Shown here piece by piece: positions 1,404 to 36,641 of a DNA stretch of 64,000 bases (its first letter is position 1; every line of letters begins with the position of its first letter). Location: IMG/VR virus record IMGVR_UViG_3300048850_000049, positions 55,864-119,863 of that record, one strand, 5' to 3'. The position numbers and the translations under genes are program-made. This DNA comes from a virus (Duplodnaviria; Heunggongvirae; Uroviricota; Caudoviricetes). The notes beneath the pieces are model-generated. The model made no database searches, had not been told where the DNA came from, and worked only from the letters and a program-made list of their open reading frames with translations.

Positions 1404-1988
1404 ATGAACGACAGACACGACCGGATGCGAGTGAAAGCCCGGAAGTATCTCGCGAAGAGGAAATCAATGTCTTATCCGATTAAAACGCGGTCGATCTCGC
1501 TCGACCATAGGGGCGGCACCAAGTCCTATCACCTCATGATTATTGAGGCTGCGAACGGGAATGCCGTCTTTATCAGTCGCTGGGGCAAGACCGGTCAGTT
1601 CGGCGAAATGAAGGTCGAAGAATACGACAGTCCTGCCAAGGCAATGAAGGCTTGGGAAAAGAAGGAGCGCGAAAAGACGCGAAACGGATACGGTCAGGCA
1701 GGTCCGGCGCGAGAAGGCCGCGCGGACACGTCTGACGAGTTCCCGAAGGCCGTCTCGCTGTCCATCTTCAACAAGATGGGTGCAAGTGCCGTCAAGCACC
1801 TCGACCCCGGCTTCGACACCGCAGGAATGCGTGAGGCTGATCCCGCCCAGTATGACGAGGAGACCGGCAGGAAGATCGATACGGCGCGCAAGGCTGACAT
1901 TAGCGAAGCGCTCGCGGCCGAAAAGGCTGCTTCTGAGAAAGCCGCTGCCGAGGCTTACGCCGACAATCCGATTTTTGGGAGGTTCTGA
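1404..1988 (+). CDS. WGR-domain protein; C-terminal PIFGRF tail
   Basis: RWGKTGQFGEMKVEEYDSPAKAMKAWEKKEREKTRNGY matches the WGR-domain pattern; ends ..NPIFGRF. Confidence 0.5.
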   Translation: MNDRHDRMRVKARKYLAKRKSMSYPIKTRSISLDHRGGTKSYHLMIIEAANGNAVFISRWGKTGQFGEMKVEEYDSPAKAMKAWEKKEREKTRNGYGQAGPAREGRADTSDEFPKAVSLSIFNKMGASAVKHLDPGFDTAGMREADPAQYDEETGRKIDTARKADISEALAAEKAASEKAAAEAYADNPIFGRF

Positions 1989-2546: not shown

Positions 2547-4064
2547 ATGAACGCATACGACGCAGCGCGCCTGATCGAGGAGATCGGCGCAACGTCCTCT
2601 CGCACGGAGAAGGAACGACTGACCAAGATTCTCGCAGATGCCGAGATTGGGAAGTTCATCCTACAGTGGGCTTATAACCCCTTCATCACCTTTGGGCTCA
2701 ATCCTGCGCTCAGTGAAAACGCCGGCAAGTTCAAGATTGAATTCAAGCCGAGCCTGGTCGAAGGGCTTTTGAAGCGCCTGTCGTCGCGTGAACTGACCGG
2801 CCATGCCGCAGAACGCGAGGTAGGTGAGGTTATGGGCGCGCTAGACGAAGACGGCGCACGGCTTCTCTTTCTCATCCTGTCGAAGGACTTGAAGTGCGGC
2901 ATCGCCGAGAACACGATCAATCAGGCTGTGCCTGGTCTCGTGCCGGTGTTCTCCGTGCAGCGCGCCCAGACCTACGAAGCAAAGCGCATGACCAGTGTGA
3001 TGAAGGGCGAGTATAAGCTCGACGGCAATCGCAACACGTTTCTGTGCAAGGATAATGACGGTGGGTTCTTTACGCGCACCGGAAAGCGTGTCGCGGCTCT
3101 CGATTTCATGGTTCCTCCTGTCATCAAGGCTGCCAAGGCAGTTGTGCAGCAGTCGGAGCTCCTGCAGCGTGTCATGGTCCGCAAGGGCGAGACCACGCTC
3201 AACTTCATGCTGGACGGCGAAGCAATGATGACGCTGTTCGAGGAGACCGGCGCATTCAGGCGCACTTCCGAAGATGCTCTCGGAGCGGAGCTTCATCTCT
3301 ACGACATGATGTCCTTTGACGATTTCGATGCGCCTGGCGCCGTCGGTGAGATCCTCGAAGTTCGCCGCACCTGGGTTGCCGAGTTCGTAAGGCTCGCCAA
3401 GATCGCACTCGCCGGCACGAAGGAAGCTGAAGCCATTCAGATCGTCCCGCAGTTCTTCGTCAATGACGATGCAGAGGTCCAGGCACTGTTCGACAGGGCT
3501 CGTTCAAAGACGCTCGCATCCTATCTGGCTCGCGGCAATGCCGAGCGTGAGAAGGATCTTCTGACCAAGACGATCGATAAGGCAACCGGCAAGCCGAAGG
3601 TGCTCGAGGGGATCGTCGTCAAGGATCCGAAGGCCAAGTATGAGAAGAAGAAGTCCTGGGTGTGGATGAAGCTGAAGGCGGAAGAAACCCTCGACCTTCG
3701 CATCACTGGCGCTTATCCCGGCAAGCCGCACACCGAGCTCCAGGACACGTTGGGTGGTATCCAGGTGGTGCACAAGGGCGTTCCGGTCAATGTAGGCGGT
3801 GGATACGAACGTCCTGAGCGCGACGAAATCTGGGCCTTGTGGAACGAGGACCGTCTCAACGGCACGATCGAGATCATTAAGGTCGCAAACGGCAAGAAGC
3901 TGATCTCCTACAATCCGAACCCTGGTTATACGCCGAAGCTGGTGTCGCGCCTTCTCGAGGTCGAATTTATGGAAGAGACGCCCGACGGCTCGCTTCGTCA
4001 TCCTCGCGCCATTCGCTTCCGCGACGATAAAGACGGTGAAGTCGAAGTGAAGGAGGCTGCATAG
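2547..4064 (+). CDS. ATP-dependent DNA ligase
   Basis: Adenylation motif I KxDGxR (EYKLDGNR); motifs IV/V EGIVVKD and WVWMKLK; RBS AGGAGAA upstream. Confidence 0.75.
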   Translation: MNAYDAARLIEEIGATSSRTEKERLTKILADAEIGKFILQWAYNPFITFGLNPALSENAGKFKIEFKPSLVEGLLKRLSSRELTGHAAEREVGEVMGALDEDGARLLFLILSKDLKCGIAENTINQAVPGLVPVFSVQRAQTYEAKRMTSVMKGEYKLDGNRNTFLCKDNDGGFFTRTGKRVAALDFMVPPVIKAAKAVVQQSELLQRVMVRKGETTLNFMLDGEAMMTLFEETGAFRRTSEDALGAELHLYDMMSFDDFDAPGAVGEILEVRRTWVAEFVRLAKIALAGTKEAEAIQIVPQFFVNDDAEVQALFDRARSKTLASYLARGNAEREKDLLTKTIDKATGKPKVLEGIVVKDPKAKYEKKKSWVWMKLKAEETLDLRITGAYPGKPHTELQDTLGGIQVVHKGVPVNVGGGYERPERDEIWALWNEDRLNGTIEIIKVANGKKLISYNPNPGYTPKLVSRLLEVEFMEETPDGSLRHPRAIRFRDDKDGEVEVKEAA

Positions 4065-4088
4065 CAACGTGACCCCTAAGTCGAGCGG

Positions 4089-4823
4089 CTATTCAGCAGC
4101 CCAAAACTGTAGCAACCCGCCGATCAACCCCATAATACCGGCAAGTCCCATTACGGGCCCGTCCTTATGGGTTGCAATTTGAAAAAGCACATGTTGTGCG
4201 CAAAACATAAAAGTCCAACCCACCGCACTAAAGACAATCCATAAAACAATTGAAAAATAGATGATCACAATTGCCCATAGTTCACCCATGAGGGGTGCGG
4301 TAATATACTGCCACGCTGGATCCCGGCAATGTTCAGCTGCCACACCCCAATAACAATTTGGCAAATAGTTAAGCCTCAACACTATTTCTCCTACAGCAAA
4401 CAATGTCATGCTCACCGCGACTGCTATCGACAGCTTCGTGAAAAATCTCCTGCGATTAGTTGCCTCTCCAAGGTAGCGAATTGCCTTCTTTGCGATGAAC
4501 GGATGCACTATCAACCCCAAGCCCATCATTGCCGCAAAATAAGCAACAGAGTTGGAGTCATGAAAGTCTGTTACGTCGTAATACATATGGACGTATACAG
4601 TCGTAGCCATTGCTGCTTGAAGCCACGGCGAGGATAGCGTGGACAAAAATCGACTTGTGGCATAACCGGCAGCCAAGTAGAGCCACAGGTCCTCCGACCG
4701 CCTTCTAATCCACTTCTTAGCTCCATCACTTAAAATGAAATCGAGGAGTTTAAGCCCAAATATAATGACGCCGCTCCACGCGATCACAATACCGATCAAT
4801 TGAGGTATATTCATAAGCGGCAA
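4089..4823 (-). CDS. Polytopic membrane protein, hypothetical (AT-rich island)
   Basis: Several hydrophobic helices; minority strand; local GC clearly lower than the surrounding sequence. Confidence 0.5.
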   Translation of the reverse strand: MPLMNIPQLIGIVIAWSGVIIFGLKLLDFILSDGAKKWIRRRSEDLWLYLAAGYATSRFLSTLSSPWLQAAMATTVYVHMYYDVTDFHDSNSVAYFAAMMGLGLIVHPFIAKKAIRYLGEATNRRRFFTKLSIAVAVSMTLFAVGEIVLRLNYLPNCYWGVAAEHCRDPAWQYITAPLMGELWAIVIIYFSIVLWIVFSAVGWTFMFCAQHVLFQIATHKDGPVMGLAGIMGLIGGLLQFWAAE

Positions 4824-4873
4824 CCCCCAACTCGACTTCTATTCTACTCCCACGTAAAAATCCGGTCGAGGCT

Positions 4874-5974
4874 TCAATGAGCCCTCCTTCGCCGCATGTA
4901 TCTCACGACTTCGGCGAGGTCGATCTGCCCGCGTTCGATCATCCGGACGTAATTTCGGTAGTATCCGCCTGGATTCTTGATCTTCATCGGCCCCGCCTGG
5001 TCCGCGGAATAGATTTCAAGCACCACAAAGAAGGCCGCGGCCGCTCGCATCGGCCCAATTTTCTCGACAGCCTCATCCCAGGCACTCCGGTGTATCCCAA
5101 TCGCGCCTCGCAAACCGGCCGCGGCCGATAGAAGTTCTCTATCGTTGGTGATCGTGTCGGTGTAACTCATTGCATCAGGGCAGGCAGCGCACAAATCTGG
5201 CAAGTTGATTTCGGATTCATTATCTCTTTGCCGTTTGTCACAAGACTGGTCAGGAGAATCTTTGTTGTTCTCAATGAGACGGCAGTTTTTGCCGCCACAG
5301 GCGGCATTATATTGATCCTCAAGGGTAGTTTTCAGACTTTGCCATAGAGAAAGCACAGGCTCGACCGGCTGCGATGACGTTCTACGCGGGGAGAGGGCGC
5401 TCAATCGCTCAAATTCGATCGTGAGCGCGTTCATATCGATGTTCTGACCGAGTGCGTCAAGCGCGCCCAGAAGCTCCTGAGAAGCTCTCCTGCAGATCGT
5501 AATCTGATCGAACAGAGCCATCCGCGCTCGCTGCAACTCCCGGATCGCATCGGTGCGCGCCTGCAGCTCATCTTTACGCGCCAGGAGGGGGGAGAGATCG
5601 AAGCCATAGGCATCAAGAATCTGTCCCTGCTTTGAGCGCACAGCGAAACGTTTGCCATTGGCGCTGTCTCGTGCAAGCACGCATCCTGCTCGGATCAGTT
5701 CACCCACGGCATACCTGATCGCGCGGTCGGAGAGTCCCGTTCGGTCGGAAAGGAACTCGTTTGACGGCCAGACCAGGTAAAGCCCGTTGACCGGCTCGCG
5801 AAAGAACCCGACCAGCTGCGAAAGGATCGATCTTGCGGAAGGGCGCAGGCCAAGAGCAATGGCTGCCAAGTGCGCGCTTTCAAATAGATCCTTCTTGGTG
5901 CCGGCATCCTCCGGCACGTAGGTATCCGCTGCCGGCGCAACGCGGCGCCAGCCTGAATGTCCCTCAGTTCTCAC
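4874..5974 (-). CDS. RepC-like winged-helix replication initiator / DNA-binding protein
   Basis: WPSNEFLSDRTGLSDRAIRYAVGELIRAGCVLARDSANGKRF and AYGFDLSPL resemble RepC (repABC family) N-terminal HTH motifs as I recall them. Confidence 0.5.
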   Translation of the reverse strand: MRTEGHSGWRRVAPAADTYVPEDAGTKKDLFESAHLAAIALGLRPSARSILSQLVGFFREPVNGLYLVWPSNEFLSDRTGLSDRAIRYAVGELIRAGCVLARDSANGKRFAVRSKQGQILDAYGFDLSPLLARKDELQARTDAIRELQRARMALFDQITICRRASQELLGALDALGQNIDMNALTIEFERLSALSPRRTSSQPVEPVLSLWQSLKTTLEDQYNAACGGKNCRLIENNKDSPDQSCDKRQRDNESEINLPDLCAACPDAMSYTDTITNDRELLSAAAGLRGAIGIHRSAWDEAVEKIGPMRAAAAFFVVLEIYSADQAGPMKIKNPGGYYRNYVRMIERGQIDLAEVVRYMRRRRAH

Positions 5975-6086
5975 AGTCCTATCCCTCGTTGGGACAAAGC
6001 TTCGCCGATCACCGAAATCGATGTTGACAGTGATTCGGAAAAGTGGGAAAACCTACTTGTTCACGGTGGTTCGCCACTTACTTATT

Positions 6087-6126
6087 AAAAGCCCTAGAGA
6101 CGCCAATCTCTGGGGCTTTTGCTTTG
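6087..6126. terminator. Bidirectional intrinsic terminator (AAAAGCCCTAGAGA..TCTCTGGGGCTTTT)
   Basis: GC-rich hairpin flanked by an A-run and a T-run, between the repC-like and RHH genes. Confidence 0.5.
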
Positions 6127-6131
6127 TCGGG

Positions 6132-6323
6132 TTAAGCTCCTAGTTCCTTGCTAAACTCACGCACTGCAATTTTAATCGCCTCAGACTGGTTTGCCGCGCC
6201 GAACTTCTTGGCTACGAGTTCCAGCGCTTTCTGATCATCCGGCGTGAGCCAAACGGTCGTATCGCGCATTCCTTCTTTCCGGCGTCGCTCCCGAGTGAGA
6301 GCCATTCTCTCTTTTGCAGTCAT
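6132..6323 (-). CDS. Ribbon-helix-helix (CopG/Arc-like) DNA-binding protein
   Basis: 63 aa, N-terminal basic beta-strand segment (ERMALTRERRRKEG..TVWLTPDD) then two helices; a bidirectional terminator lies downstream. Confidence 0.55.
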   Translation of the reverse strand: MTAKERMALTRERRRKEGMRDTTVWLTPDDQKALELVAKKFGAANQSEAIKIAVREFSKELGA

Positions 6324-6511
6324 GCCTGATTCTCGCTTGTCTTAGCAACTGTTGCTCCGATTCTGCGATCAGTGGCAAGGCGCTGGGGAATTTAGTCCAA
6401 CGGATTTCACTACACCCATTTGTATTACGCCAAAATCGGTCAGTAGCAGGCATTCACAATCGGGAATAAAATTTCATTGCTTTCATTCATAATTGAACAA
6501 AGGGGAAAGAA

Positions 6512-7618
6512 ATGCCAAATATTTTTCTTGAGGCTAATGGCCTTCTTAACACGACCGCTAAGCGCTCGCTCCAATATATCGTTCAAGCCTGTTCAGTGTT
6601 TTGTTTTACCGCAATTACAACTTCTACTCTATTGGCCCAGGACAATCCATTGGTGGCCGCGTGTCAGGCAGTATACGCGACCTCAACCGCAAATGTATCA
6701 ACCGAACGTCGACGCACGGCTGAATTAGAGACTCTACACGACGCCATGTGTAGCGCGGATATCGTGAAAGAAGGCTTTCAATTGGACGCTGGCCTAGAGG
6801 CAATTGTCTATGGTGTTCCCATAGCTGGCGATTTGGGGATCAACTCCACAAAAGATAGGCAGAATTATATCTGCAAGAACTTCGAATCTCTTCGCACAGC
6901 AACCGCGGCTCTTGATACATATTCTAAGACGATTGTCGTGGCGGCTCTGTCAAATTTCAACGGTTGTCTAGAACTCGCCTCCCGCGGCGTTTCTGTTCAG
7001 CCAGCGGTCGCAGCGCCCCAGTCACTGGTGGTTAAGCTAAGTCTTACAGATCCGGACGGTATGACACTCCAAGCATTCGCGAAAACCAACAACATGAATT
7101 GCATCAGTCCTCAAATCGAAGGAAAAGACAAAGTTATCGATCCGGCAAAAGAATATAGATTTAAAAACGACTTCTCTGTCGCCTGCACTCGGTCAGCAGA
7201 GAAAGGAGAGAAGGAATTTTATAAGCCCGGCCACGTAAACTTCACTACAAGCCGATCTAAGTATCCATTCACGTTCAGCCTGGCTGAAGATGAGCTGCTA
7301 GCACCCATGCTTGCCAGTCAGTCGAAAACACGTATTGACGAACTCGAAGGGATGGCGAATAGCGAAAAGGGGCGCGCCGATAAGAACCAAGCGGAGCTTA
7401 ACAAGGTAAACGCCTATACCGTGGTAACTCACGGATATGTTGTTGGACAATACAATCCTGGAGGCCGTGGAAGTCACTTCGGGTGTTACACCCTGGAAAG
7501 CGTGGCTCTAGCGCAACTCTGTCCTAACGCGGTCAAAACAGCGGTAACGCATCTCGGCTCATGGAGTGGCCACCAGTGCGGCTACGCCGCTTACACTGCG
7601 GCGTGTCTGATGCCCTGA
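6512..7618 (+). CDS. Secreted Cys-rich hypothetical protein (AT-rich island)
   Basis: Signal-peptide-like N-terminus (KRSLQYIVQACSVFCFTAITTSTLLAQ), many Cys, low-GC codon usage. Confidence 0.45.
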   Translation: MPNIFLEANGLLNTTAKRSLQYIVQACSVFCFTAITTSTLLAQDNPLVAACQAVYATSTANVSTERRRTAELETLHDAMCSADIVKEGFQLDAGLEAIVYGVPIAGDLGINSTKDRQNYICKNFESLRTATAALDTYSKTIVVAALSNFNGCLELASRGVSVQPAVAAPQSLVVKLSLTDPDGMTLQAFAKTNNMNCISPQIEGKDKVIDPAKEYRFKNDFSVACTRSAEKGEKEFYKPGHVNFTTSRSKYPFTFSLAEDELLAPMLASQSKTRIDELEGMANSEKGRADKNQAELNKVNAYTVVTHGYVVGQYNPGGRGSHFGCYTLESVALAQLCPNAVKTAVTHLGSWSGHQCGYAAYTAACLMP

Positions 7619-7712
7619 CAGGCGGAAGGTCCTTTACGCCGGCGGTATCCACCCGCCGGCAGTGAAAATCAGATAAGAGTTGTTATGGAACTGGCTTGGG
7701 TGGAGTTTCATA

Positions 7713-8300
7713 TCATGGAACCACGATCGACTTTTCCAAGCTTTCCAGTATTGCCTTGTGCCCGTTTATTTGCTTGTTCAAACGAACGATGGTGGTCTCT
7801 TTAATGCTGATGCGAAGAAACTCCACACCGATACAAAAGACGGCCTTGTTGTATTTTACGAAGCCCTTAGACCTAATCTCGTATTCGGGGATTGGCATCT
7901 TTGGACGCTGGAACCGCTCGATTTTTTCGCCGTTATAATTTTCGTGCGCCTTGCGACAGCAGTGCATCGACATAATCAGATCTTTGATGTCCGCTTTTAA
8001 GAAGTCCGCATGTTCCATATCATGAGCAAAGCGGTTTCTTAGCTTTCTGAGGATCCCGATATCCCTAAACTCATCGTCATTTATCAGCCCGAAGGCGCGA
8101 CAAATGCTGGACTTGCCTGAGAAGGTCGACAAAGGTCCATTTGAATCAAAAAGGTCAGTTGTCGCCTTTTGCGACATACCGTTCACCTGGCATTCATAGA
8201 GTAGCATCTGGCGGAGCTCAGCGTCGATTATAGAGGCCGCTAGAATGACGCAGCCACGATCTGACTCTTCCATAAGGTCGTATTTTAGCTCTTCGAACAT
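7713..8300 (-). CDS. HEPN-like (Rx4-6H) protein, Abi/DUF4145-like
   Basis: RKLRNRFAHD motif in a helical 195-aa protein; minority strand; AT-rich island. Confidence 0.5.
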   Translation of the reverse strand: MFEELKYDLMEESDRGCVILAASIIDAELRQMLLYECQVNGMSQKATTDLFDSNGPLSTFSGKSSICRAFGLINDDEFRDIGILRKLRNRFAHDMEHADFLKADIKDLIMSMHCCRKAHENYNGEKIERFQRPKMPIPEYEIRSKGFVKYNKAVFCIGVEFLRISIKETTIVRLNKQINGHKAILESLEKSIVVP

Positions 8301-8402
8301 ACCGGTCTCCGCTCCCCCATCAAAACCCTCTAAGAGCTCCTAGTCTCACATTATGAACAAATTAAAATTCGACAAGGCTTTTGTTTCAATTATGAGTGCA
8401 GA

Positions 8403-8479
8403 AAGTAAGTATGCATTGACTTACTTTTTTTTCAGTGGTCTAACGCTTCCGCTGCGATCCCGTGAGTGTCTCGCTATAA
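8403..8479 (+). promoter_or_regulatory. AAGTAAGT..ACTTACTT palindrome plus T8 (terminator-like), then -35-like GCGATCCCGTG and CGCTATAA
   Basis: Upstream of the XRE regulator gene 8532. Confidence 0.5.
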
Positions 8480-8531
8480 TTCAACTATCGAAAGCGAGAT
8501 GCAATTGATTGATAAAAACCGAACCGTATAA

Positions 8532-8963
8532 ATGGGGATTAAGAACATGACAGCGAAGACAGGAAACCAAACACGGTTTTCCACCTTCATAGAAAAGAAG
8601 CTGATGGAGAGCACAAAGACCCAAAAGGAAATTGCGCAAGCCGTCGGCTACAAGAACCAGAATATGATCACCATGCTTAAGCTTGGTGACGTAAAGCTCG
8701 CTCTCGATCGCGTGCCGGCAATGGCAAAAGCCCTTGATATGGATCCTTTGGATCTTTTCAAAATTGCCCTTACCCAATTCTATGACAACGAGTCCGTCTC
8801 CCTCCTCGTAGGGATCATTGAACGAGGCATTTCTCCGGCCGAGCGTAAGATCCTCGAAACCGTTCGGGAAGCCTCAGGAAGTGATACGCCGGAACTTACC
8901 CCAGAACGAGCCAAAAAGCTCGCGAAGGTCTTCGCCCCTGAAAAGGTGAAGGAGCCTGGATAG
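8532..8963 (+). CDS. XRE-family HTH transcriptional regulator
   Basis: QKEIAQAVGYKNQNMITMLKLGDVKL HTH; preceded by the phage promoter motif and followed by an intrinsic terminator. Confidence 0.6.
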   Translation: MGIKNMTAKTGNQTRFSTFIEKKLMESTKTQKEIAQAVGYKNQNMITMLKLGDVKLALDRVPAMAKALDMDPLDLFKIALTQFYDNESVSLLVGIIERGISPAERKILETVREASGSDTPELTPERAKKLAKVFAPEKVKEPG

Positions 8964-8993
8964 TTCACTCACGACCCACCGCGGTTCAACTGG

Positions 8994-9027
8994 AAGCCTG
9001 CTATAAGCCCAAGCAGGCTTTTCTTTT
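8994..9027 (+). terminator. Intrinsic terminator (GAAGCCTGC..GCAGGCTT plus TTCTTTTG)
   Basis: After the XRE gene stop. Confidence 0.55.
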
Positions 9028-9094
9028 GCGCCGTGACTTAAGTAATTACTGACTTATGCCTGACCACCCCTCCTCGTTCCCCAAGGATTCTACA

Positions 9095-9322
9095 ATGACC
9101 GAACGCACGCCCTTCCTTCGCAATCTGTCCCTCGCGAATGAGGACGCCTACATTCTGGCTTCCGAGCTGGAAGATAAAAAGACCGATGAGGTCAATGGCT
9201 GCACCATCTACTCCGGCAAGCACCCGGAATTTGGCAATATTCACATCGTTATTCCGGCGCTAGGCGACGCAAAGGCACTTTTTCCCTTTGAGCTGAAGCC
9301 TGTTGTTCTCCAGTCATTTTAA
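9095..9322 (+). CDS. Hypothetical small protein
   Basis: ATG with an AAGGA RBS; same orientation as the flanking genes. Confidence 0.3.
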   Translation: MTERTPFLRNLSLANEDAYILASELEDKKTDEVNGCTIYSGKHPEFGNIHIVIPALGDAKALFPFELKPVVLQSF

Positions 9323-9366
9323 GCGCAGAAGTAAGTAATCAAATACTTACAAGGAGTTAGCGAAGC

Positions 9367-11643
9367 ATGAACCGCGATATCATCGAACTGCGCGAGGTAG
9401 TTCAAAAGCTCGTTCCTCTGCTTTCTGGTAAAGGGTTGACGGTCACGCAGCGTGGCAGTCAGGCATATGTTTCAACCAACCCTCGCACGAAGCAGCCTGA
9501 GACCGTCAACATTCCCAATATTCCTGACTCCGCCCCGCCTGAGTTCGTCCAGGCGATCCAGGGCTTCATCGATCACGAAGTCGGTCACGTCCTTCATACC
9601 GACTGGAACTTCTACGGCGGCAAGGGCGGAATGTCAGTCGCGGATCTGCAGGATCCGAAGCGCCGCGCTTTTATGAACACGCACAACATCATCGAGGACG
9701 TGATGATCGAGCGGGAGATGTGCAAGACCTTCCCTGGCTCGGCTCGCAATATCTCAAGCACCCGCAAGTGGTTCCTTGAAAAGATCACCAATGAGGCTCT
9801 CAAGGCTACCAAGGATCCCAAGGAGCAGTTCCGCTACCTGATCGTCCCGATGATGCGCGCCATCGGCGGGCATGAGGAAATGCAGGATTTCATGGACGAC
9901 GGCAAGTGGTGGACGAATATCTACGTCCAGGAGCTGCTCACCAAAATGAAGCCTGCGACCATCGAACTCCTCAAGACCTGCACGAACACGGAAGAGACGC
10001 TTGTCATTTCCGAAGAGGTCCACGCGATCATCATGCCTTCTGCTGCTCCCGAAGCTCCGGTTCCGCCCAAGGAAAAGGAAGAAAAGAAGAAGGATGAGAG
10101 GGATGAAAAGAAAAAGAAGGGCAAGTCTGAGGACAAGCCCGAAAAGAAGGCTGACGAGGGCGACGGTGACGGAGAGCGTGATCATGAGGACACCAAGCCT
10201 GATGAGGACGGCGACGGCGATGCCAAGGACGACGAGAAGGATAAGGATGAGGAAGAAGATGCCGGCGCTGATGCTGGCGATGATGATGGCGCCGAGAAGG
10301 AGTCCGATGAGGCGGAATCCGGAGACGATGACGGCGACACGGATACTGACGAGCCGAGCAAGCCCGAGCCGAAAAATGCGGCTTCTGACGACGATGAGGC
10401 TGGTGAGGATGAAGCAGCTGCGGCAGGCGACGACGCCGATGACGACGCGGCTACCAGTTCAGGCGCTTCTGGTATCGGAGCTGAACCCGGCAACGCAGGC
10501 GATGGTGATGAGAGCGACGGTGATGCGGAAGGTGGCAATCCGCCGATCCGCACCGAAGGCGCCGATGGTGGTGGTGTAGGCACGATCGACGGTGGAGATG
10601 ACCACGAACGCCAGGGAGGAGGAGGCGGTGTCGGCAACGAGTCTGCCAAGTCCTTGTTCGACTATGAGGATGACGACTTTGACGAGGTTGATATGTCCTC
10701 GCAGATTGCGATCAAGATCTCCGACGAAGCCGTCCTCGCGATGGATCCCAAGCAGTATCTCGTATTCACTCGCGAAATGGATCAGATCCAGCCGGTCGAA
10801 GTGCCCGAGAAGATGAACAAGTCTTGGGTTCCGGCTATGGAAGACGAAACTCGCCTGATGACCTCAAAGATGTCGAAGGACATCGAACGCGCAATGGCTT
10901 CACAGAGCCACGTCATCCGCACGCCTGGTCACAAGACCGGCAAGCTGCACGCGCCGTCCCTCTTCCGCGTAACCCAGGGCGATCCGCGAGTATTCTCGCA
11001 GCGCCAGGAACACGTTTCAAAGGATACGGCCGTCTCGCTTGTCGTGGACAACTCCGGCTCGATGGGCGGACCCAAGATGAAGCTCGGCATGATCGCCAGT
11101 TACGCCCTCTCCTCGACGCTCGACCGTGTGAAGATCGCTCATGAGGTGATCGGCTTCACGACCGGCGGATACTGGAACGGCGTTCCCGACTCGATCCGTA
11201 GGGCAATGGCTGACGACGCTGCCAAGGCGGGCATTAACTGGGATCGGATGACGCCGATCATCATGCCTATCTACAAGTCCTTTGAAGAACGCATCACTGC
11301 AACGGTGAAGGCGCGCTTCGCCTATATGATGAATGCGCAAGCTGGTCTCAACGGCAACGTTGACGGCGAGTCCCTGCAGTATGCGGCTGAACGCCTGCTT
11401 AAGCGGCCGGAGAAGCGCAAGGTAATGCTGGTTCTGTCCGACGGACAGCCGGCAGGTTCCCACAAGTCGGGCCCTCACCTCTCGCATGTGGTCAAGGATC
11501 TGGAGCGCTTCGGCATCGAATGCGTCGGAATTGGCATCCTGGATGACAGCGTGAAGAAGTTTTATCCGAAATACACCGTCCTTCGGACTGTGGAGGATCT
11601 GCCTGGTCAGGTCATGGCCGAAATCAAGAAGATCCTCATGTAA
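9367..11643 (+). CDS. cobT: CobT-like vWA-domain protein with a long acidic tract
   Basis: C-terminal MIDAS motif DNSGSM (vWA); roughly 200-aa D/E-rich low-complexity middle; HEVGH motif near the N-terminus; paired with a CobS-like ATPase as in phage cobST pairs. Confidence 0.6.
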   Translation: MNRDIIELREVVQKLVPLLSGKGLTVTQRGSQAYVSTNPRTKQPETVNIPNIPDSAPPEFVQAIQGFIDHEVGHVLHTDWNFYGGKGGMSVADLQDPKRRAFMNTHNIIEDVMIEREMCKTFPGSARNISSTRKWFLEKITNEALKATKDPKEQFRYLIVPMMRAIGGHEEMQDFMDDGKWWTNIYVQELLTKMKPATIELLKTCTNTEETLVISEEVHAIIMPSAAPEAPVPPKEKEEKKKDERDEKKKKGKSEDKPEKKADEGDGDGERDHEDTKPDEDGDGDAKDDEKDKDEEEDAGADAGDDDGAEKESDEAESGDDDGDTDTDEPSKPEPKNAASDDDEAGEDEAAAAGDDADDDAATSSGASGIGAEPGNAGDGDESDGDAEGGNPPIRTEGADGGGVGTIDGGDDHERQGGGGGVGNESAKSLFDYEDDDFDEVDMSSQIAIKISDEAVLAMDPKQYLVFTREMDQIQPVEVPEKMNKSWVPAMEDETRLMTSKMSKDIERAMASQSHVIRTPGHKTGKLHAPSLFRVTQGDPRVFSQRQEHVSKDTAVSLVVDNSGSMGGPKMKLGMIASYALSSTLDRVKIAHEVIGFTTGGYWNGVPDSIRRAMADDAAKAGINWDRMTPIIMPIYKSFEERITATVKARFAYMMNAQAGLNGNVDGESLQYAAERLLKRPEKRKVMLVLSDGQPAGSHKSGPHLSHVVKDLERFGIECVGIGILDDSVKKFYPKYTVLRTVEDLPGQVMAEIKKILM
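10040..10690 (+). repeat. Coding low-complexity D/E-rich tract (about 215 aa) inside the cobT-like gene
   Basis: EEKKKDERDEKKKKGKSEDKPEKKADEGDGDGERDHEDTKPDEDGDGDAKDDEKDKDEEEDAG... Confidence 0.8.
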
Positions 11644-14260: not shown

Positions 14261-17200
14261 ATGCACTCAATTCTCGCAGCCCGCACTGACTTTTCAGTCG
14301 GTGAAAGCATCCTCACGACCAAGTTTCTCATCAAGAATGCGGTCGATGCGGGTGCCAAGGCAGTCGCGATGACGGATACCATGTCTGTCACCGGCATGAT
14401 CGACTTCACCGGCAAGGCGAAAGCTGCAGGATTGAAGCCTATTATCGGCGTCCGCCTGCGCCTGGTGGACAATCCGGAATGGCGTCCTGGCGACGGCGAG
14501 AAGAAGAAGGACATGCCGCGTCCCTACTTTCTGACGCTCTATGCGCTGAAAGAAGCTGGCATCAAGGCGATCTTCCGGCTGCTGACGCTCGCAAACGGCG
14601 CAAGTCGCTTTTATTACGAGCCGAAGCTCGGCTTCACGGATCTCTATGATGAACTGAGGGCCATCGAGGGTGACGAGTTGGCGATTGTCCTTGGCGATGC
14701 GCACTCGGTTCTGGAGCATCCTGACGCAGACGAGATCGTCCGCAATCTCAGCGCCGAGGTCACGCATCTTTATGCGCCGCTGATTCCTATCGACACGCCC
14801 TATTATGGGCGTCTTAACGAGATCGCCCTGCGGATTATCGCTGACACTTACGCCAAGCCGATTATCGTTCGTCCCGCCTTCTATGGTCAGGGCGAAGCTG
14901 ACACGCAGGAGATCATGACCGCGATCTCCGACAATCATAAGATTACCGATGGCTGGTTTAAGTCGCGTCACAACCGCGACATGCACGTCATGAGCCTGAC
15001 CGAACTCGTAGGTCAGATGAAGATTGCAGTCCAGCACCTTGAAAAGCGAGGCATTGTTGGCGCTGGCGCTGAGTTCAAGCAGGGGCTGCTCAACACGGGC
15101 GTTCTCGTCGCTGCCGTCGAATATGAATGGTCAAAGGCCGAGGTCTCGCTGCCTATCATGGCGCCTGATGAGTTCGCCGCTTTGCTGGAAGAATGCAAGA
15201 AGGGCTGGAAGATCCGCTTTGATGCTCCGGTCTTCGGACATCAACCGACGCCGGCCGAATTGTCGACCGTCTACAAGGAGCGGCTTGCCTACGAATTGCA
15301 GACGCTCAAGCGGCTCAACTTCTCGGGTTACTTCCTGCTCGTGCAGGACGTGGTGCAATTCGCCAAGAACAGCGACATTCTGGTTGGTCCTGGTCGTGGT
15401 TCCGTGGGCGGATCCCTTGTCGCTTATCTAATGGGCATTACCGAGTGCGATCCTATCCGGTTCGGGCTGCTTTTCGAGCGCTTCATCAATCCTGACCGTA
15501 TCGATCTTCCCGACGCCGATCTCGACTTCATGTCCGAGCGCCGGCACGAGATTTTCGAATACCTGGTCAAGAAGTATGGCGATGCGCGCGTCGCAGGCGT
15601 TTCGAACTTTGGAACGCTCGCTTCCGCCTCGTCAATCCGCGATGTTGGCCGCGTGACCAACATTCCTGAAAAGGACTATTCGGTCTCAAAGTTCGTGCCT
15701 AAGAAGAACGGTCAGAACATTCCCCTGCCCGACTGCCGCAAGGCAGTTCCCGAGATCGATGCGTTCGCTAACAACTATCCGGCTTTCTGGCCAATCATGG
15801 AACGGCTTGAAGGCACGATCCGCAACTTCGGACAGCACGCAGCTGGTGTGGTCGTCGGCGGAGTTGATCTTGTAGAGCGTGCCGTCATTGAACGGCGCAA
15901 GGACGGCTCTGTCGTCTGTTGGGACAAGCGCATCGTCGAGGATCAGGGCCTGGTCAAGATGGATATTCTTGGTCTTGTTACCCTCGATCTTATCAAGCTG
16001 ACGCTCGATTATGTTCGCGAACGTTCCGGCAAGCGTGTGGATATCAGCCGGATTCCCCTCGATGATGAGAAGGTTCTTGCGAACTTCGTCAAGGCGAACA
16101 CGACCGCGGTCTTTCAGTTCGAGTCCGGTGGTATGCGCCGGCTTCTGAAGGAACTCGGCTCGACCGGCTCGATCACGTTCGAGGATATCACCGCCGCAAC
16201 TGCTCTTTACCGTCCTGGTCCGATGGAATCGGGCATGATGGACAGCTTCTATCTGCGCAAGCAGGGGCATGAGACCATTGAATATGACCATCCGCTGATG
16301 GAGCCGGTGCTCGAGGAGACCTTCGGCGTCATCGTCTACCAGGAACAGGTCATGAAGATCTCCCAGGTGATTGCCGGCTACTCCGGTGCCGCTGCTGACA
16401 AGCTGCGCAAGATCATGGGTAAGAAGCTGCCCGAGGAAATGAAGAAGGAGCGCCAGAAGTTCTGCGATGGCTGCGTCGCCACGATTGCTTGCACCGAAGA
16501 ATGGGCAGGCGAGCTTTTCGACAAGATTGAAGGCTTCGCCGGCTACGGCTTCAACAAGAGCCACTCGGTCGAATACACGCTGATCTCCTACCAGGCGATG
16601 TGGCTCAAGACCTATCACGCCGTCGAGTTCTACGCGGCTGCCCTGACGCTTCTGAAGGAAGAAAAGCTGACTGGCATTATCCGCGATGCAAAGGCCCTCG
16701 GCATCGATGTATCCATGCCTGACATCAACATTTCGACCAACCGGTTCGAGATTGCGACGGACGCAAGGCTTGTGATGCCGTTCCAGCGTATCAAGGGACT
16801 GTCTCAGAAGGCGACTGACGCGATTATTAACGCTCGGGCGGCTGGTCCCTTCAAGGACAAGACCGACTTCCTCAATCGTGTGGAGAAGCGCGTCTGCAAC
16901 GTGAAGGTGCAAGGCGCTCTGGATCTTGTCGGCTCTTTTGCCCGCATCGAGCCTGGCCAGGTGGCCGCGAACGATCCGAGCCGCATCAAGGACCAGATCG
17001 AGCTCCTGCCCGGTCTCATCGCCGTCCATGTGCCTATCGATCATGAACTCAACCGCGACAAGGATACGAAGGTCGCGCTCGGCGAGCTGGTTGACGAATA
17101 TCGCGCAGCGCACGGTCCTGCCGCAACGGTCGCTGACGGATATCCGGTCAAGCCGTTCTTCGGCAAGGAAGCGTCTGCGATGGTGATCTCGGATGCTCCC

Positions 17201-34315: not shown

Positions 34316-34569
34316 AGAAGTTCGCCCTTCTCGCGGCAGTTGCCGCAACCTCGCTCCTCGCCGGCTGCGGTGTGGATCCGGACAATGCTCGCCGCGCCCT
34401 GGAAGCGCAGGGCATCACCAACGTCCAGATCGGCGGACATGCCTTCTTCGGTTGCGACAAGAATGATCAGTTCGCGTCCAATTTCACCGGCGTCGGCGTC
34501 AATGGCAAGCCTATCTCCGGCGTTCTGTGCGGCGGGATCTTCAAGGGCATCACCGTTCGCTATGACTAA
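34312..34569 (+). CDS. Small lipoprotein
   Basis: Signal peptide plus lipobox LLAGC. Confidence 0.55.
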   Translation: MKKFALLAAVAATSLLAGCGVDPDNARRALEAQGITNVQIGGHAFFGCDKNDQFASNFTGVGVNGKPISGVLCGGIFKGITVRYD

Positions 34570-36538: not shown

Positions 36539-36573
36539 TAATCAGCAGAACGAGAATTGATAGGGGTCGTTAC

Positions 36574-36641
36574 GCCCCGGTAGCACAGGGCCGTGCAGTG
36601 GTTGAAAGCCAAAGGTCGTGGTTCGACTCCACGCCGGGGAT
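36574..36641 (+). tRNA. tRNA-like element 1 (acceptor/D/T arms; no canonical anticodon stem found by eye)
   Basis: 6-bp acceptor CCCCGG/CCGGGG, U8A9, D-stem GCAC/GUGC, T-arm CGUGG-UUCGACU-CCACG. Confidence 0.35.

What the first reader, a model, noticed from the sequence alone, without database searches (positions are those of the whole stretch)
4065..6330. Minority-strand island with a RepC-like initiator, an RHH protein and a membrane protein inside the phage replication module
Genes 4089..4823, 4874..5974 and 6132..6323 are the only sizeable - strand block in the first 50 kb. Part of the block is AT-richer, and it is bracketed by terminators. The 366-aa protein shows winged-helix motifs recalled from rhizobial RepC (repABC plasmid initiator). 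If this is real, the element could maintain itself as a plasmid prophage (a phage-plasmid). Otherwise the island is an imported plasmid module acting as a moron.
Basis: partly seen in the sequence, partly recalled or inferred. Interest (0 to 1): 0.65.

Follow-up and report, generated by a model that had tools for sequence, protein, structure and literature searches.

The report
RepC plasmid replicon of a rhizobial phage-plasmid
The reverse-strand island is the plasmid-type replication unit (a small repressor-like gene, a predicted antisense RNA and the RepC initiator) of a new member of an already described family of ~117-kb rhizobial phages that can live as plasmids, plus one unrelated membrane-protein gene inserted beside it.

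Summary
ORF 4874..5974(-) is a true RepC: it passes Pfam RP-C and RP-C_C and the NCBIfam RepABC_RepC equivalog cut-offs.

The window is collinear, at 70-77% nt identity, with pLM21S1 of Sinorhizobium. It belongs to the RHEph10/pLM21S1/B1VFA group. Members of this group are known both as virions and as circular 115-119 kb plasmids, and they have been published as RepC-carrying phage-plasmids. The lifestyle reading is therefore supported but not new.

What I add:
- The conserved unit is RHH gene, predicted ~67-nt antisense RNA, then solo repC with an internal A+T-rich origin signature. It is a "repC-family" replicon, not repABC. Ordinary rhizobial plasmids carry the same unit.
- The leader plus repC (4874..6134) is a sharply bounded cassette. 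It is 82% identical to a Phyllobacterium element, although the backbone is of pLM21S1 type, so the replicon allele was swapped.
- Three GANTC sites are positionally conserved in the two promoter-like regions.
- The membrane-protein gene (4089..4814) is an AT-richer ORFan absent from all relatives, so it is a separate accessory insertion.

"Bracketed by terminators" is not confirmed. The only strong hairpin lies inside the island. Replication itself is untested.

The parts
4089..4814 (-). ORFan multi-pass membrane protein of 241 aa from the ATG at 4814. The ORF list gives 4089..4823 from a TTG. It is a window-specific accessory gene, not part of the conserved replicon.
   Evidence: It has five hydrophobic segments. 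It has no Pfam, PHROG, NCBIfam or PADLOC hit. Only 2 relatives exist among 5.8 billion proteins, and one of them is the same element. It is absent from all 15 related loci. GC3 is 0.50. The AF2 model has pLDDT 46 and is unusable.
4841..4869 (-). Promoter-like site (TCGACC-N17-TAGAAT) in the repC-membrane gene spacer. It may be the membrane gene's own promoter.
   Evidence: Consensus scan only. Sequence. Weak evidence.
4874..5974 (-). repC, a replication initiator of the RepC family, 366 aa, with a GTG start.
   Evidence: Pfam RP-C 5.7e-38 and RP-C_C 7.9e-18. NCBIfam NF040974 scores 206.7 bits against a cut-off of 150. phrog_22671 matches at 2e-62. It is 88% identical to the RepC of the Phyllobacterium element, with dN/dS of 0.095.
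5125..5350 (.). A+T-rich dip inside repC (repC nt ~625-850), the putative oriV. It holds two GANTC sites (5214, 5256).
   Evidence: GC is 44-48% here against 55-65% in the rest of repC. A dip at repC nt ~650-800 occurs in 10 of 11 family repC genes. It lies at the same relative place as the essential A+T region of p42d repC (nt 450-850, PMC3155836). No iterons were found. Function is inferred.
5982..5994 (-). Small hairpin UCCC-AACGA-GGGA that would sequester the repC Shine-Dalgarno sequence.
   Evidence: Read from the sequence. Equivalent pairing of the conserved GCTTTGYCC motif with the SD is visible in most relatives. Inferred.
5993..6000 (-). 3' arm (GCUUUGUC) of a long-range helix in the RHH-repC leader RNA.
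   Evidence: It pairs 8/8 with 6121..6128. A perfect 8-bp complement sits at the same place in 9 of 15 loci, in three compensatory variants. Tool count: 71% of cells paired, 4 pairs changed on both sides, and 4-10 of 500 shuffles did as well. Moderate support.
6010..6023 (-). Leader hairpin 3 (CAUCG-AUUU-CGGUG), next to the antisense -35 box.
   Evidence: A hairpin of different sequence occupies the same position in the family loci, with U.G pairs in the sense orientation (read by eye).
6024..6052 (+). Antisense promoter-like element: TTGACA (6024..6029), 17 nt, GAAAAC (6047..6052). A GANTC site (6032..6036, reading TGATTCG) lies in the spacer.
   Evidence: TTGAC is invariant in 14/14 aligned loci, as are the A residues of the -10-like hexamer. 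The -10 is non-canonical, and the E. coli-type scan did not list it.
6059..6126 (+). Predicted counter-transcribed RNA of ~67 nt, antisense to the repC leader. It has a 5' stem-loop at 6065..6078 (GGUGG-UUCG-CCACU), a terminator hairpin and a U tail.
   Evidence: MFE is -28.1 kcal/mol with z = -4.36. The same two-hairpin layout follows the promoter in the relatives where the whole RNA was extracted, about 8 of 14; an automatic cut shortened the rest. No Rfam family matches. No expression data.
6087..6120 (.). Intrinsic-terminator hairpin: 14-bp stem, 6-nt loop.
   Evidence: Inverted repeat I7. Across 12 sequences, 13 pairs are 92% paired and 8 show compensatory changes; 0-1 of 500 shuffles did as well. 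There are 15 G.U cells against 4 A.C cells, and the longer conserved U tract (CUUUUGCUUUG) is on the + strand. Both points favour function on the strand antisense to repC.
6121..6128 (-). 5' arm (GACAAAGC) of the long-range leader helix. It is also the complement of the ctRNA 3' tail.
6132..6323 (-). Small ribbon-helix-helix protein (63 aa), a probable CopG-like transcriptional regulator of the RHH-repC unit.
   Evidence: A homologue lies at the same place in all 13 family loci aligned. The family profile hits the RHH domain of NikR at E = 1.2e-3. Pfam RHH_1 matches in 5/13 members (best 1.6e-4) and RHH_8 at 2e-4 in one. The window protein itself scores 14.1 bits, below the cut-off of 20.5. 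NCBIfam UrfF "plasmid repression protein F" matches at 3.9e-4, below cut-off.
6350..6378 (-). Promoter-like element upstream of the RHH gene: TTGCCA, 17 nt, GCAACA. GANTC at 6359..6363 lies in the spacer, and a second GANTC at 6328..6332 lies just before the RHH start.
   Evidence: A TTGCCA-like box and the GAATC are present at the same relative place in 14/14 loci. The second GANTC is present in 14/14 with a variable middle base. Function is inferred.
4874..6134 (-). Exchangeable replicon cassette: leader, ctRNA and repC.
   Evidence: blastn against the Phyllobacterium element gives one 82%-identical block. It runs from the repC stop codon to the RHH stop codon. Flanking genes are far more diverged: ligase 51%, RHH 39%, HTH 34% aa.

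Best explanation
The island is the plasmid-maintenance replicon of a temperate siphophage-plasmid of the RHEph10/pLM21S1/B1VFA group, with one unrelated accessory gene beside it.

The replicon is of the solo "repC-family" type, not repABC. RepC (4874..5974) is the initiator. It probably opens an A+T-rich origin inside its own coding sequence (about 5125..5350) and probably acts in cis, as in p42d and Ti plasmids.

repC is probably expressed as the distal gene of an RHH-repC transcript that starts at a promoter around 6350..6378. Expression would be held low by three layers:
1. The small RHH protein acts as a CopG-like autorepressor.
2. A terminator hairpin (6087..6120) sits between the two genes and must be read through.
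3. A ~67-nt counter-transcribed RNA (about 6059..6126, + strand) pairs with the leader. That pairing would break a long-range helix (6121..6128 with 5993..6000), which would free the GCUUUGUCCC segment to sequester the repC ribosome-binding site and/or favour termination.

Conserved GANTC sites in both promoter-like regions suggest coupling to the host CcrM/GcrA cell-cycle methylation system, as described for repABC replicons.

The leader plus repC, which would carry the incompatibility determinants, is a discrete cassette. In this element it was replaced by an allele of a different RepC clade.

The membrane gene (4089..4814) is a later, compositionally foreign insertion of unknown role. My guess is a lysogen-expressed accessory function such as superinfection exclusion.

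Shown: RepC identity, synteny, family membership, cassette boundaries, hairpin covariation, the GC dip, and GANTC conservation.
Inferred: origin function, cis action, ctRNA expression and mechanism, RHH repression, the methylation link, and the role of the membrane protein.
For: RepC identity:
- Pfam, NCBIfam and PHROG scores are all above their cut-offs.

Family membership:
- The window is collinear with pLM21S1 from 113.3 kb through the record start to 54.0 kb, at 66-79% nt identity. Window 4063..8561 is the only long unaligned stretch.
- The order ligase / repC / RHH / HTH / CobT / CobS / sigma / dnaE is the same in 5 circular plasmids, 6 phages and 3 IMG/VR contigs.
- One of those contigs is a 118,187-bp whole contig of Phyllobacterium myrsinacearum AN3.
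- Published descriptions: PMC4447125, PMC5537653, PMC7969092, PMC12509600.

Solo-repC type:
- The gene upstream is an RHH, not repA/repB.
- The nearest non-phage RepCs (pRL22b3 and a Microvirga plasmid) are also solo.
- They carry the same RHH ORF, hairpin, antisense TTGACA and GCTTTGCC motif.

Origin:
- The GC dip falls at repC nt 625-850. This matches the p42d data in PMC3155836.
- No iterons were found.

ctRNA:
- An invariant TTGAC lies 17 nt from a -10-like hexamer on the antisense strand in 14/14 loci.
- The terminator hairpin has 8 of 13 pairs with compensatory changes and a G.U bias for the + strand.
- The predicted RNA folds with z = -4.36.
- Precedent exists for a ctRNA in both repABC and repC-family replicons (PMC3155836, PMC10194956).

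Operon and long-range helix.

GANTC:
- Three sites are positionally conserved in 14/14 loci.
- The site in the antisense promoter reads TGATTCG, which matches YGAKTCG (motif from PMC9976885).
- repABC loci are known to carry GANTC in the same three kinds of place (PMC11514494).

Cassette swap:
- RepC tree and identity matrix.
- A sharp 82% block covers 4874..6134.
- repC dN/dS is 0.095.
Against: - No experiment shows that this fragment replicates, and none could be run.
- The window holds no partition genes. pLM21S1 ParA and ParB have no match in it. They would lie outside the 64 kb, so plasmid maintenance of this particular element is inferred from relatives.
- pLM21S1 was not inducible with mitomycin C (PMC4447125). 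Conversely, no lysogen has been reported for the plaque-isolated relatives. No single member has been shown to do both.
- In R. beringeri pRlX6 the repC is annotated in two pieces, yet the element is a plasmid. This is either a sequencing error or a sign that RepC is dispensable there.
- The -10 of the antisense promoter is non-canonical (GAAAAC), and the consensus scan did not find it.
- No Rfam ctRNA family matches.
- The hairpin could simply be a bidirectional terminator.
- Support for the long-range helix is only moderate.
- GANTC enrichment by count is weak: 3 sites in 469 nt against about 0.8 expected at the window's density. The conserved sites could belong to operators unrelated to methylation.
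- The window's own RHH score is below Pfam's cut-off.
Confidence: 0.75

Rival explanations
1. RepC is only the origin-recognition protein for lytic phage DNA replication, a lambda-O-like role that recruits the phage's own DnaB, primase and DnaE. On this view the element is a virulent phage that never persists as a plasmid.
For: - Six relatives were isolated as plaque formers (PMC12509600).
- The genome encodes a full replisome next to repC: primase, ligase, DnaE-UDG, a gp32-like SSB and a RecA-like protein.
- No other initiator is apparent.
- RepC also hits the PHROG "replication initiation O-like" families weakly.
Against: - Five relatives are circular plasmids in finished bacterial genomes, and one is a whole 118-kb contig of an isolate.
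- The family carries parA/parB (PMC12509600).
- Low-expression features fit copy-number control rather than a lytic burst. These are the GTG start, the terminator before repC, the antisense promoter and the SD-sequestering hairpin.
- The two roles are not mutually exclusive.
Confidence: 0.12
2. There is no antisense RNA. The hairpin at 6087..6120 is just a bidirectional terminator ending the RHH gene. repC has its own promoter downstream and is regulated only by proteins (the RHH and/or the divergent HTH repressor). The conserved TTGAC and GANTC motifs are operator sequences.
For: - The hairpin is flanked by A and T runs on both sides, so it can terminate both ways.
- The -10 is non-canonical, and the promoter scan did not list it.
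- No Rfam ctRNA match was found.
- There are no transcript data.
Against: - No conserved sense-strand promoter is visible between the hairpin and repC.
- TTGAC, the 17-nt spacing and the A residues of the -10 are invariant across sequences that otherwise share only 48% column identity.
- The G.U bias (15 against 4 cells) and the longer conserved U tract favour the antisense strand.
- A long-range helix spans the hairpin, which implies one RHH-repC leader RNA.
- All studied repABC and repC-family replicons use a ctRNA at this place (PMC3155836, PMC10194956).
Confidence: 0.2
3. The whole island (RHH, repC and the membrane gene) is a recently imported plasmid fragment carried as a passive moron, or a decaying relic with no role in the phage's biology.
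For: - Part of the island is AT-richer.
- The repC allele is of a different clade from the backbone's relatives.
- The region does not align at DNA level with pLM21S1.
Against: - RHH-repC sits at the same position and orientation in all 14 related elements.
- repC is intact, with dN/dS of 0.095.
- The regulatory elements are conserved with compensatory changes.
- Only the membrane gene is element-specific and compositionally foreign.
Confidence: 0.04
4. The RHH protein is the antitoxin of a toxin-antitoxin addiction module rather than a replication regulator.
For: Weak hits to MazE-like (4/13 members), RelB (1/13) and ParD antitoxin RHH families.
Against: - No toxin-like ORF is adjacent in any of the 14 loci. 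The next gene is always repC.
- The gene is tied to repC also on ordinary plasmids.
- All of these hits are below the curated cut-offs.
Confidence: 0.03

Closest known systems
pLM21S1 of Sinorhizobium sp. LM21 and Rhizobium phages RHEph10, B1VFA, V1VFA-S and RHph_X66 (published phage-plasmid group; PMC4447125, PMC12509600)
   Same: - The window is collinear with pLM21S1 over the whole 64 kb at 66-79% nt identity.
- The replication-module order is the same, with repC and RHH on the opposite strand after the ligase.
- The nadV/nadM-type region is collinear with that of pLM21S1.
   Different: - RepC is only 42-44% identical to that of its closest backbone relatives (pLM21S1, X66, B1VFA) and belongs to another RepC clade.
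- Three genes are unique to this element: 4089..4814, 6512..7618 and 7713..8300.
- No megablast match to any deposited phage exists for 3500..9000.
Solo "repC-family" replicons of rhizobial plasmids (pRmeGR4a type; PMC10194956 citing Izquierdo 2005). Examples seen here: pRL22b3 of R. leguminosarum and a Microvirga ossetica plasmid.
   Same: - repC is not in an operon with repA/repB.
- An antisense RNA gene is expected just upstream of repC.
- The same RHH ORF, terminator hairpin, antisense TTGACA and GCTTTGCC motif are present.
- pRL22b3 aligns at 67-69% nt with the phage-plasmids across RHH..repC.
   Different: - Here the replicon sits in a phage genome and is apparently its only replicon. 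PMC10194956 states that repC-family modules are always found on plasmids that also carry a repABC cluster.
- Whether pRmeGR4a itself has the RHH gene was not checked.
repABC replicons (p42d of R. etli, pTi, A. tumefaciens Ch2)
   Same: - The RepC initiator has RP-C and RP-C_C domains.
- An A+T-rich origin signature lies inside repC at the same relative position, with no iterons (PMC3155836).
- An antisense RNA is encoded in the spacer before repC.
- The leader has alternative structures.
- GANTC sites lie in the operon promoter, the antisense promoter and repC (PMC11514494).
   Different: - There are no adjacent repA/repB. Partition genes lie about 70 kb away in relatives.
- The upstream gene is a 63-aa RHH.
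- The predicted RNA (~67 nt) is not detected by any Rfam model.
copG-RNAII-repB control circuit of pMV158 (recalled from my own knowledge, not checked here)
   Same: The logic is the same: a small RHH repressor gene lies first in the operon, an antisense RNA is encoded in the spacer, and the initiator gene lies last. That gives dual transcriptional and post-transcriptional copy-number control.
   Different: This is a resemblance in logic only. pMV158 is an unrelated rolling-circle replicon of Gram-positive bacteria, with no sequence relationship and a different initiator.

Membership tests
RepC replication initiator (Pfam RP-C / RP-C_C; NCBIfam NF040974 RepABC_RepC) | N-terminal RP-C domain above the Pfam gathering score | tested here: met
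   PF03428 scores 130.9 bits against a cut-off of 24.4, over residues 17-169.
RepC replication initiator (Pfam RP-C / RP-C_C; NCBIfam NF040974 RepABC_RepC) | C-terminal RP-C_C region above the gathering score | tested here: met
   PF11800 scores 65.1 bits against a cut-off of 32.6, over residues 258-357.
RepC replication initiator (Pfam RP-C / RP-C_C; NCBIfam NF040974 RepABC_RepC) | NCBIfam equivalog model above its curated cut-off | tested here: met
   NF040974 scores 206.7 bits against a cut-off of 150.
RepC replication initiator (Pfam RP-C / RP-C_C; NCBIfam NF040974 RepABC_RepC) | Origin inside repC: a central A+T-rich region without iterons | tested here: met
   A GC dip to 44-48% falls at repC nt 625-850 and is conserved in 10/11 family genes. 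No iterons were found. This tests composition only; origin activity was not tested.
RepC replication initiator (Pfam RP-C / RP-C_C; NCBIfam NF040974 RepABC_RepC) | Necessary and sufficient for autonomous replication, acting in cis | not testable with these tools
   This needs cloning in a suicide vector and transfer to a rhizobial host.
repABC operon | repA (ParA) and repB (ParB) immediately upstream of repC in one operon | tested here: not met
   The upstream gene is a 63-aa RHH. pLM21S1 ParA and ParB have no match anywhere in the window. I therefore do not file this as repABC.
Solo repC-family replicon (pRmeGR4a type) | repC not linked to repA/repB | tested here: met
   The same holds in the nearest plasmid relatives.
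Solo repC-family replicon (pRmeGR4a type) | Antisense RNA gene upstream of repC that controls repC and determines incompatibility | tested here: inconclusive
   A conserved antisense promoter-like element and a covarying terminator hairpin predict a ~67-nt RNA. There are no expression or incompatibility data.
Rfam ctRNA families (e.g. ctRNA_p42d) | Match to a curated covariance model | tested here: not met
   No match at gathering score in the window or in 9 related loci. No ctRNA model appeared even at E up to 10 in 3900..6700.
RHEph10/pLM21S1 phage-plasmid group | Genome collinearity and shared gene content with described members | tested here: met
   Collinear blastn blocks cover most of the 64 kb at 66-79% identity. 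The phage replisome, CobT/CobS and sigma genes are present.
RHEph10/pLM21S1 phage-plasmid group | Exists as an extrachromosomal circular replicon in a host and also forms virions | not testable with these tools
   This is shown only for relatives, and separately: plasmids, virions.
RHEph10/pLM21S1 phage-plasmid group | Partition genes (parA/parB) and no integrase | not testable with these tools
   In pLM21S1 the par genes lie at 69.6-75 kb. That is outside the part covered by the window, which reaches the equivalent of 54 kb. Ten large ORFs of the window were scanned and none is an integrase.
Ribbon-helix-helix (CopG/Arc/MetJ) regulators | RHH sequence signature above a curated threshold | tested here: inconclusive
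   The window protein scores 14.1 bits on RHH_1 against a cut-off of 20.5. The family profile hits the NikR RHH domain at E = 1.2e-3. RHH_1 matches 5/13 members (best 1.6e-4), and RHH_8 matches one at 2e-4. A beta-strand (TTVWL) followed by the NxSEAI helix-cap pattern is visible in the alignment.

The most novel reading that the evidence does not exclude
The 1.26-kb leader, antisense-RNA and repC segment (4874..6134) behaves as a precisely bounded, exchangeable incompatibility cassette. It moves between phage-plasmid lineages and between phage-plasmids and ordinary, including conjugative, rhizobial plasmids. Such exchange would let a phage-plasmid change its incompatibility group while keeping its backbone. 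In addition, the phage-plasmid's replication would be timed by the host CcrM/GcrA methylation cycle through three positionally conserved GANTC sites. That would be a cell-cycle-entrained prophage replicon.
Probability: 0.4. Interest if true: 0.5.

Novelty: new member of a known kind. Interest (0 to 1): 0.3.

Why it matters
- The window adds a divergent member to a small and little-studied group of alphaproteobacterial phage-plasmids. No deposited phage matches the replicon region at megablast level.
- It gives that group's replicon a concrete anatomy that can be tested directly: RHH gene, predicted antisense RNA, structured leader, and solo repC with an internal origin.
- The clean cassette boundaries give a simple model for how phage-plasmids avoid incompatibility with the many repABC and repC replicons of rhizobial hosts.
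- The link to ordinary rhizobial plasmids shows where phage-plasmids exchange parts with plasmids.
- The central claim, a RepC-bearing phage that can live as a plasmid, has been in the literature since 2015, so a specialist would not be surprised.

Tried and rejected
- Megablast of 3500..9000 against the phage collection found no match. Protein-level searches were needed instead.
- Rfam found no family in the window or in 9 related loci. At E up to 10 there was only a chance-level His_leader hit (E = 2.3) that picks up the terminator hairpin. I rejected it as a leader peptide attenuator.
- A search for iterons or direct repeats in 4000..9400 found only short two-copy chance families.
- PADLOC gave no hit for the membrane protein, the two inserted genes, the RHH or the HTH.
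- The membrane protein has no hit in any family library and only two relatives in the large protein database. The AlphaFold model has pLDDT 46, so I ran no fold search.
- The 6512..7618 protein has no family hit and no tblastn match in plasmids. The MtlR-like protein gave only distant hits at 29-37% identity.
- GANTC inside the A+T-rich part of repC occurs in the window and some relatives but not consistently. I do not claim it as a conserved feature.
- My first automatic hairpin finder mis-assigned hairpins because it allowed G.T pairs, and then crashed. I replaced it with fixed-position arms.
- The sigma-70 consensus scan did not list the antisense promoter. I kept the promoter on comparative grounds only and flagged it as such.

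Full report

The three minus-strand ORFs are there: 4089..4823 (244 aa, TTG start), 4874..5974 (366 aa, GTG start) and 6132..6323 (63 aa). For the first ORF, the ATG at 4814 is the likelier start. It has a GGGGG run 9 nt upstream, and two public assemblies call the 241-aa product.

A census of all minus-strand ORFs of 90 aa or more shows that almost all are antisense shadows of longer plus-strand genes. The exceptions in the first 50 kb are these ORFs and 7713..8300.

The stretch 4051..4800 is AT-richer, at 45-49% GC against about 57% in the flanks.

"Bracketed by terminators" does not hold. No terminator-like site lies in the 24 nt between the convergent ligase and membrane genes, or in 6324..6511. 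The only strong hairpin, 6087..6120, is inside the island.

**2. What the proteins are**

The 366-aa protein is a RepC:
- Pfam RP-C scores 130.9 bits and RP-C_C 65.1 bits, both far above the gathering scores.
- The NCBIfam equivalog RepABC_RepC scores 206.7 bits against a cut-off of 150.
- phrog_22671 "replication protein" matches at 2e-62.

The 63-aa protein is probably a ribbon-helix-helix regulator.
- Its own Pfam score is below the cut-off (RHH_1, 14.1 bits against 20.5).
- Homologues sit at the same place in 13 related loci.
- The family profile finds the RHH domain of NikR (E = 1.2e-3).
- RHH_1 matches 5 of the 13 members, and RHH_8 matches one.

The 241-aa protein has five hydrophobic segments. 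It has no hit in Pfam, PHROGs, NCBIfam or PADLOC. It has only two relatives among 5.8 billion proteins. One is the same element, on a 119,863-bp contig.

**3. What the element is**

The flanking genes are a phage replisome:
- primase, WGR protein and ATP-dependent ligase on one side;
- an HTH regulator, CobT- and CobS-like proteins, a sigma factor, DnaE fused to a UDG domain, a gp32-like SSB and a RecA-like protein on the other.

RepC finds 44%-identical proteins in ten Rhizobium phage records of 115-122 kb (RHEph10, RHph_N1_10, X66, B1VFA, V1VFA-S and others). Its best plasmid hits are circular, non-mobilizable 115-119 kb "plasmids" of Shinella, Sinorhizobium sp. LM21 (pLM21S1), Rhizobium beringeri and Pararhizobium. 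A 117-kb Methylobacterium plasmid lies further down the list.

The window is collinear with pLM21S1 from 113.3 kb through the record origin to 54.0 kb, at 66-79% nt identity. The only long gap is window 4063..8561.

Every relative has the same arrangement. The ligase is followed by repC and a small RHH gene on the opposite strand. A divergent HTH gene then heads the CobT-CobS-sigma-dnaE block.

This group is already published:
- pLM21S1 is "a plasmid-like prophage" with "a RepC-like replication system" and no integrase. It and RHEph10 are proposed archetypes of a new group (PMC4447125; also PMC5537653 and PMC7969092).
- B1VFA and V1VFA-S are "possible prophage-plasmids" with parA, parB and repC (PMC12509600).

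**4. The island is not one unit**

tblastn of the window's proteins against 15 related loci finds RepC, RHH, HTH and ligase everywhere. It finds the membrane protein, the 6512..7618 protein and the MtlR-like protein nowhere except in a second assembly of the same element.

These three genes are AT-richer. The membrane gene has GC3 of 0.50 against about 0.70 for backbone genes.

They are insertions on either side of the conserved RHH-repC core. The HTH/RHH divergent spacer also holds other extra ORFs in X66, pRlX6 and the Phyllobacterium element, so it looks like an insertion hot spot.

**5. Type of replicon**

The gene upstream of repC is the RHH, not repA/repB. pLM21S1's ParA and ParB have no match in the window. 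In pLM21S1 they lie about 70 kb from repC. This is a solo "repC-family" replicon, a type known in rhizobia and controlled by an antisense RNA (PMC10194956).

The nearest non-phage RepCs are also solo. They are on pRL22b3, a 276-kb conjugative R. leguminosarum plasmid, and on a 594-kb Microvirga plasmid. Upstream of each I found:
- an unannotated RHH ORF;
- the same terminator hairpin (identical in pRL22b3 and RHEph10);
- an antisense TTGACA;
- the same GCTTTGCC or GCGTTGCC motif.

pRL22b3 aligns at 67-69% nt with X66, B1VFA, pLM21S1 and RHEph10 from about the RHH gene through repC. The cassette is therefore a plasmid replicon type that phage-plasmids share with ordinary plasmids.

**6. Origin**

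No iterons occur in or around repC. Inside repC the GC content falls to 44-48% at 5125..5350, which is repC nt 625-850. Ten of eleven family repC genes have their GC minimum at nt ~650-800.

In p42d the origin lies in an A+T-rich region at repC nt 450-850. Silent G+C-raising mutations at nt 658-822 abolish replication. No iterons or DnaA boxes are present, and RepC acts in cis (PMC3155836).

The window shows the same signature. Origin function remains an inference.

**7. The RHH-repC spacer (5975..6131)**

Aligning the spacer of 14 loci (48% mean column identity) shows an invariant TTGAC on the strand antisense to repC. A hexamer follows 17 nt later, and its three A residues are invariant: GAAAAC in the window, GATAAC in most relatives. 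Coordinates are 6024..6029 and 6047..6052.

Transcription from there would give a ~67-nt RNA, about 6059..6126. It would have a 5' stem-loop (6065..6078, with a UUCG loop) and a terminator hairpin (6087..6120) followed by CUUUUGCUUUG. It folds at -28.1 kcal/mol with z = -4.36.

The relatives where the whole RNA was extracted (about 8 of 14) show the same two-hairpin layout, with lengths of 67-102 nt. In the rest an automatic cut shortened the sequence that was folded.

The terminator hairpin is well supported. Across 12 sequences its 13 pairs are 92% paired, and 8 pairs show compensatory changes. Only 0-1 of 500 shuffles did as well, and slid registers drop to 26-72% paired.

Two features point to the plus strand as the functional one:
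- There are 15 G.U cells against 4 A.C cells.
- The U tract is longer and conserved on that side.

No Rfam model detects this RNA, in the window or in nine related loci. It is a prediction with precedent, not a member of a curated family.

**8. The sense leader**

Three further elements sit between the antisense promoter and repC on the sense strand:
- a hairpin of variable sequence directly 3' of GTCAA (6010..6023), with U.G pairs in the sense orientation;
- a conserved GCTTTGYCC motif;
- a short hairpin in which that motif's YCC(C) pairs with the Shine-Dalgarno sequence (5982..5994).

The minimum-energy fold of the leader pairs GACAAAGC (6121..6128) with GCUUUGUC (5993..6000). The first arm lies immediately 5' of the terminator hairpin.

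Nine of 15 loci have a perfect 8-bp complement at that position. It comes in three compensatory variants: GACAAAGC/GCTTTGTC, GGCAAAGC/GCTTTGCC and GACAAAGG/CCTTTGTC. pRL22b3 has AACGC/GCGTT. With fixed-position arms the tool gives 71% of cells paired and 4 pairs changed on both sides, and 4-10 of 500 shuffles did as well. I rate this as moderate support.

If the helix is real, the RNA must run from the end of the RHH gene to repC. That implies an RHH-repC operon read through the hairpin.

It also suggests a mechanism. The antisense RNA's 3' tail is complementary to the 5' arm. Pairing would release GCUUUGUCCC to close on the ribosome-binding site. This parallels p42d, where ctRNA binding refolds the repB-repC leader (PMC3155836).

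**9. GANTC sites**

Three GANTC sites are positionally conserved in all 14 loci:
- one in the spacer of the promoter-like element upstream of the RHH gene (window 6359);
- one just before the RHH start (6328), with a variable middle base across loci;
- one in or next to the antisense promoter (6032), which reads TGATTCG on the antisense strand and so fits YGAKTCG.

YGAKTCG is the subset of methylated GANTC sites bound by GcrA, and GcrA boxes typically centre near -20 (PMC9976885). repABC loci are reported to be GANTC-rich in the operon promoter, the repE (antisense RNA) promoter and the origin in repC. CcrM and GcrA control repC expression in A. tumefaciens (PMC11514494).

The window as a whole is GANTC-poor, at 1.77 per kb against 3.8 expected from composition. 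repC has 4.5 per kb. Enrichment by count is weak, so the argument rests on positional conservation. The sites inside repC are not consistently placed across the family. Coupling to methylation is a hypothesis.

**10. Cassette exchange**

The window's ligase (72%) and HTH (70%) are closest to pLM21S1, B1VFA and X66. Its RepC is only 42-44% identical to theirs. It is 88% identical to the RepC of a 118,187-bp contig of Phyllobacterium myrsinacearum AN3, whose ligase, HTH and RHH are only 51%, 34% and 39% identical.

In the RepC tree the conjugative-plasmid RepC of pRL22b3 is closer to pLM21S1's (61%) than the window's is.

blastn between the window and the Phyllobacterium element gives one 82% block covering window 4874..6134. 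That runs from the repC stop codon to the RHH stop codon. repC is under purifying selection (dN/dS 0.095).

So the leader, antisense RNA and repC were exchanged as a unit. In repABC and repC-family replicons these are the elements that determine incompatibility (PMC3155836, PMC10194956).

**11. Caveats**

- Nothing here shows replication.
- The partition genes, the virion genes and the contig ends lie outside the window.
- pLM21S1 was not inducible with mitomycin C (PMC4447125).
- No lysogens are reported for the plaque-isolated relatives.
- pRlX6 carries repC in two pieces.
- The antisense -10 is non-canonical and was not found by the consensus scan.
- The membrane protein's role is unknown. 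The structure model was unusable, with pLDDT 46.

**12. Verdict**

This is a real RepC replicon in a new, divergent member of a known phage-plasmid group. The terminator claim and the "single island" view do not.

Novelty is low for the headline. The replicon anatomy, the cassette swap and the conserved GANTC sites are of moderate novelty, and all are directly testable.

Noticed in passing
window 6512..7618 (+) and 7713..8300 (-): Two AT-richer genes are inserted between the RHH gene and the divergent HTH gene, and no relative has them. One is a 368-aa ORFan with an N-terminal signal-like segment. The other is a 195-aa protein with an MtlR-type domain (Pfam 2e-9; phrog_22031, function unknown). 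There are no PADLOC hits. The HTH/RHH spacer also holds different extra ORFs in X66, pRlX6 and the Phyllobacterium element, so it looks like an insertion hot spot.
   Followed up: partly
L020 about 3150..3360 (pRL22b3) and L021 about 3080..3290 (Microvirga plasmid): Both ordinary plasmids have an RHH ORF directly upstream of a solo repC that is not in the plasmid gene tables shown by the tool. It is homologous to the phage-plasmid RHH. The terminator-hairpin sequence of pRL22b3 is identical to that of phage RHEph10.
   Followed up: partly
L005 4001..5147 (R. beringeri pRlX6): repC is annotated as two CDS, with a frameshift near residue 266, in an element deposited as a circular plasmid. This is either a sequencing error or a sign that RepC is dispensable there.
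   Followed up: no
window 54600..55000: This is a second divergent, AT-rich intergenic region, next to a small minus-strand ORF ending near 54685. Six GANTC sites lie within about 300 nt, and the 1-kb bin 54001-55000 holds 8, the densest in the window. It may be another methylation-sensitive control region.
   Followed up: no
whole window: GANTC is under-represented about twofold: 1.77 per kb against 3.8 expected from base composition. pLM21S1 has 1.2 per kb.
   Followed up: partly
window 14261..17620 (+): The DnaE-type polymerase carries a C-terminal uracil-DNA-glycosylase domain (Pfam UDG, 1e-11, residues 967-1098). RHEph10's polymerase is annotated the same way.
   Followed up: no
window 34358..34435 (-) and 36574..36641 (+): tRNA-Trp(CCA) and tRNA-Phe(GAA) genes. 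The 223-aa minus-strand ORF 36570..37241 overlaps the tRNA-Phe and has a non-coding-like codon-position GC pattern, so it is probably not a gene.
   Followed up: partly
L021 4742..5092 and window 1404..1988: A WGR-domain protein gene lies directly downstream of the solo repC on the Microvirga plasmid. A WGR-domain protein also belongs to the phage replication module three genes from repC. This may be a recurring association or a coincidence.
   Followed up: no
window 50413..53373: This region is collinear with the NUDIX (nadM-like) and nicotinate/nicotinamide phosphoribosyltransferase (nadV-like) genes of pLM21S1. The NAD-salvage module described for pLM21S1 therefore appears to be present here too.
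   Followed up: no
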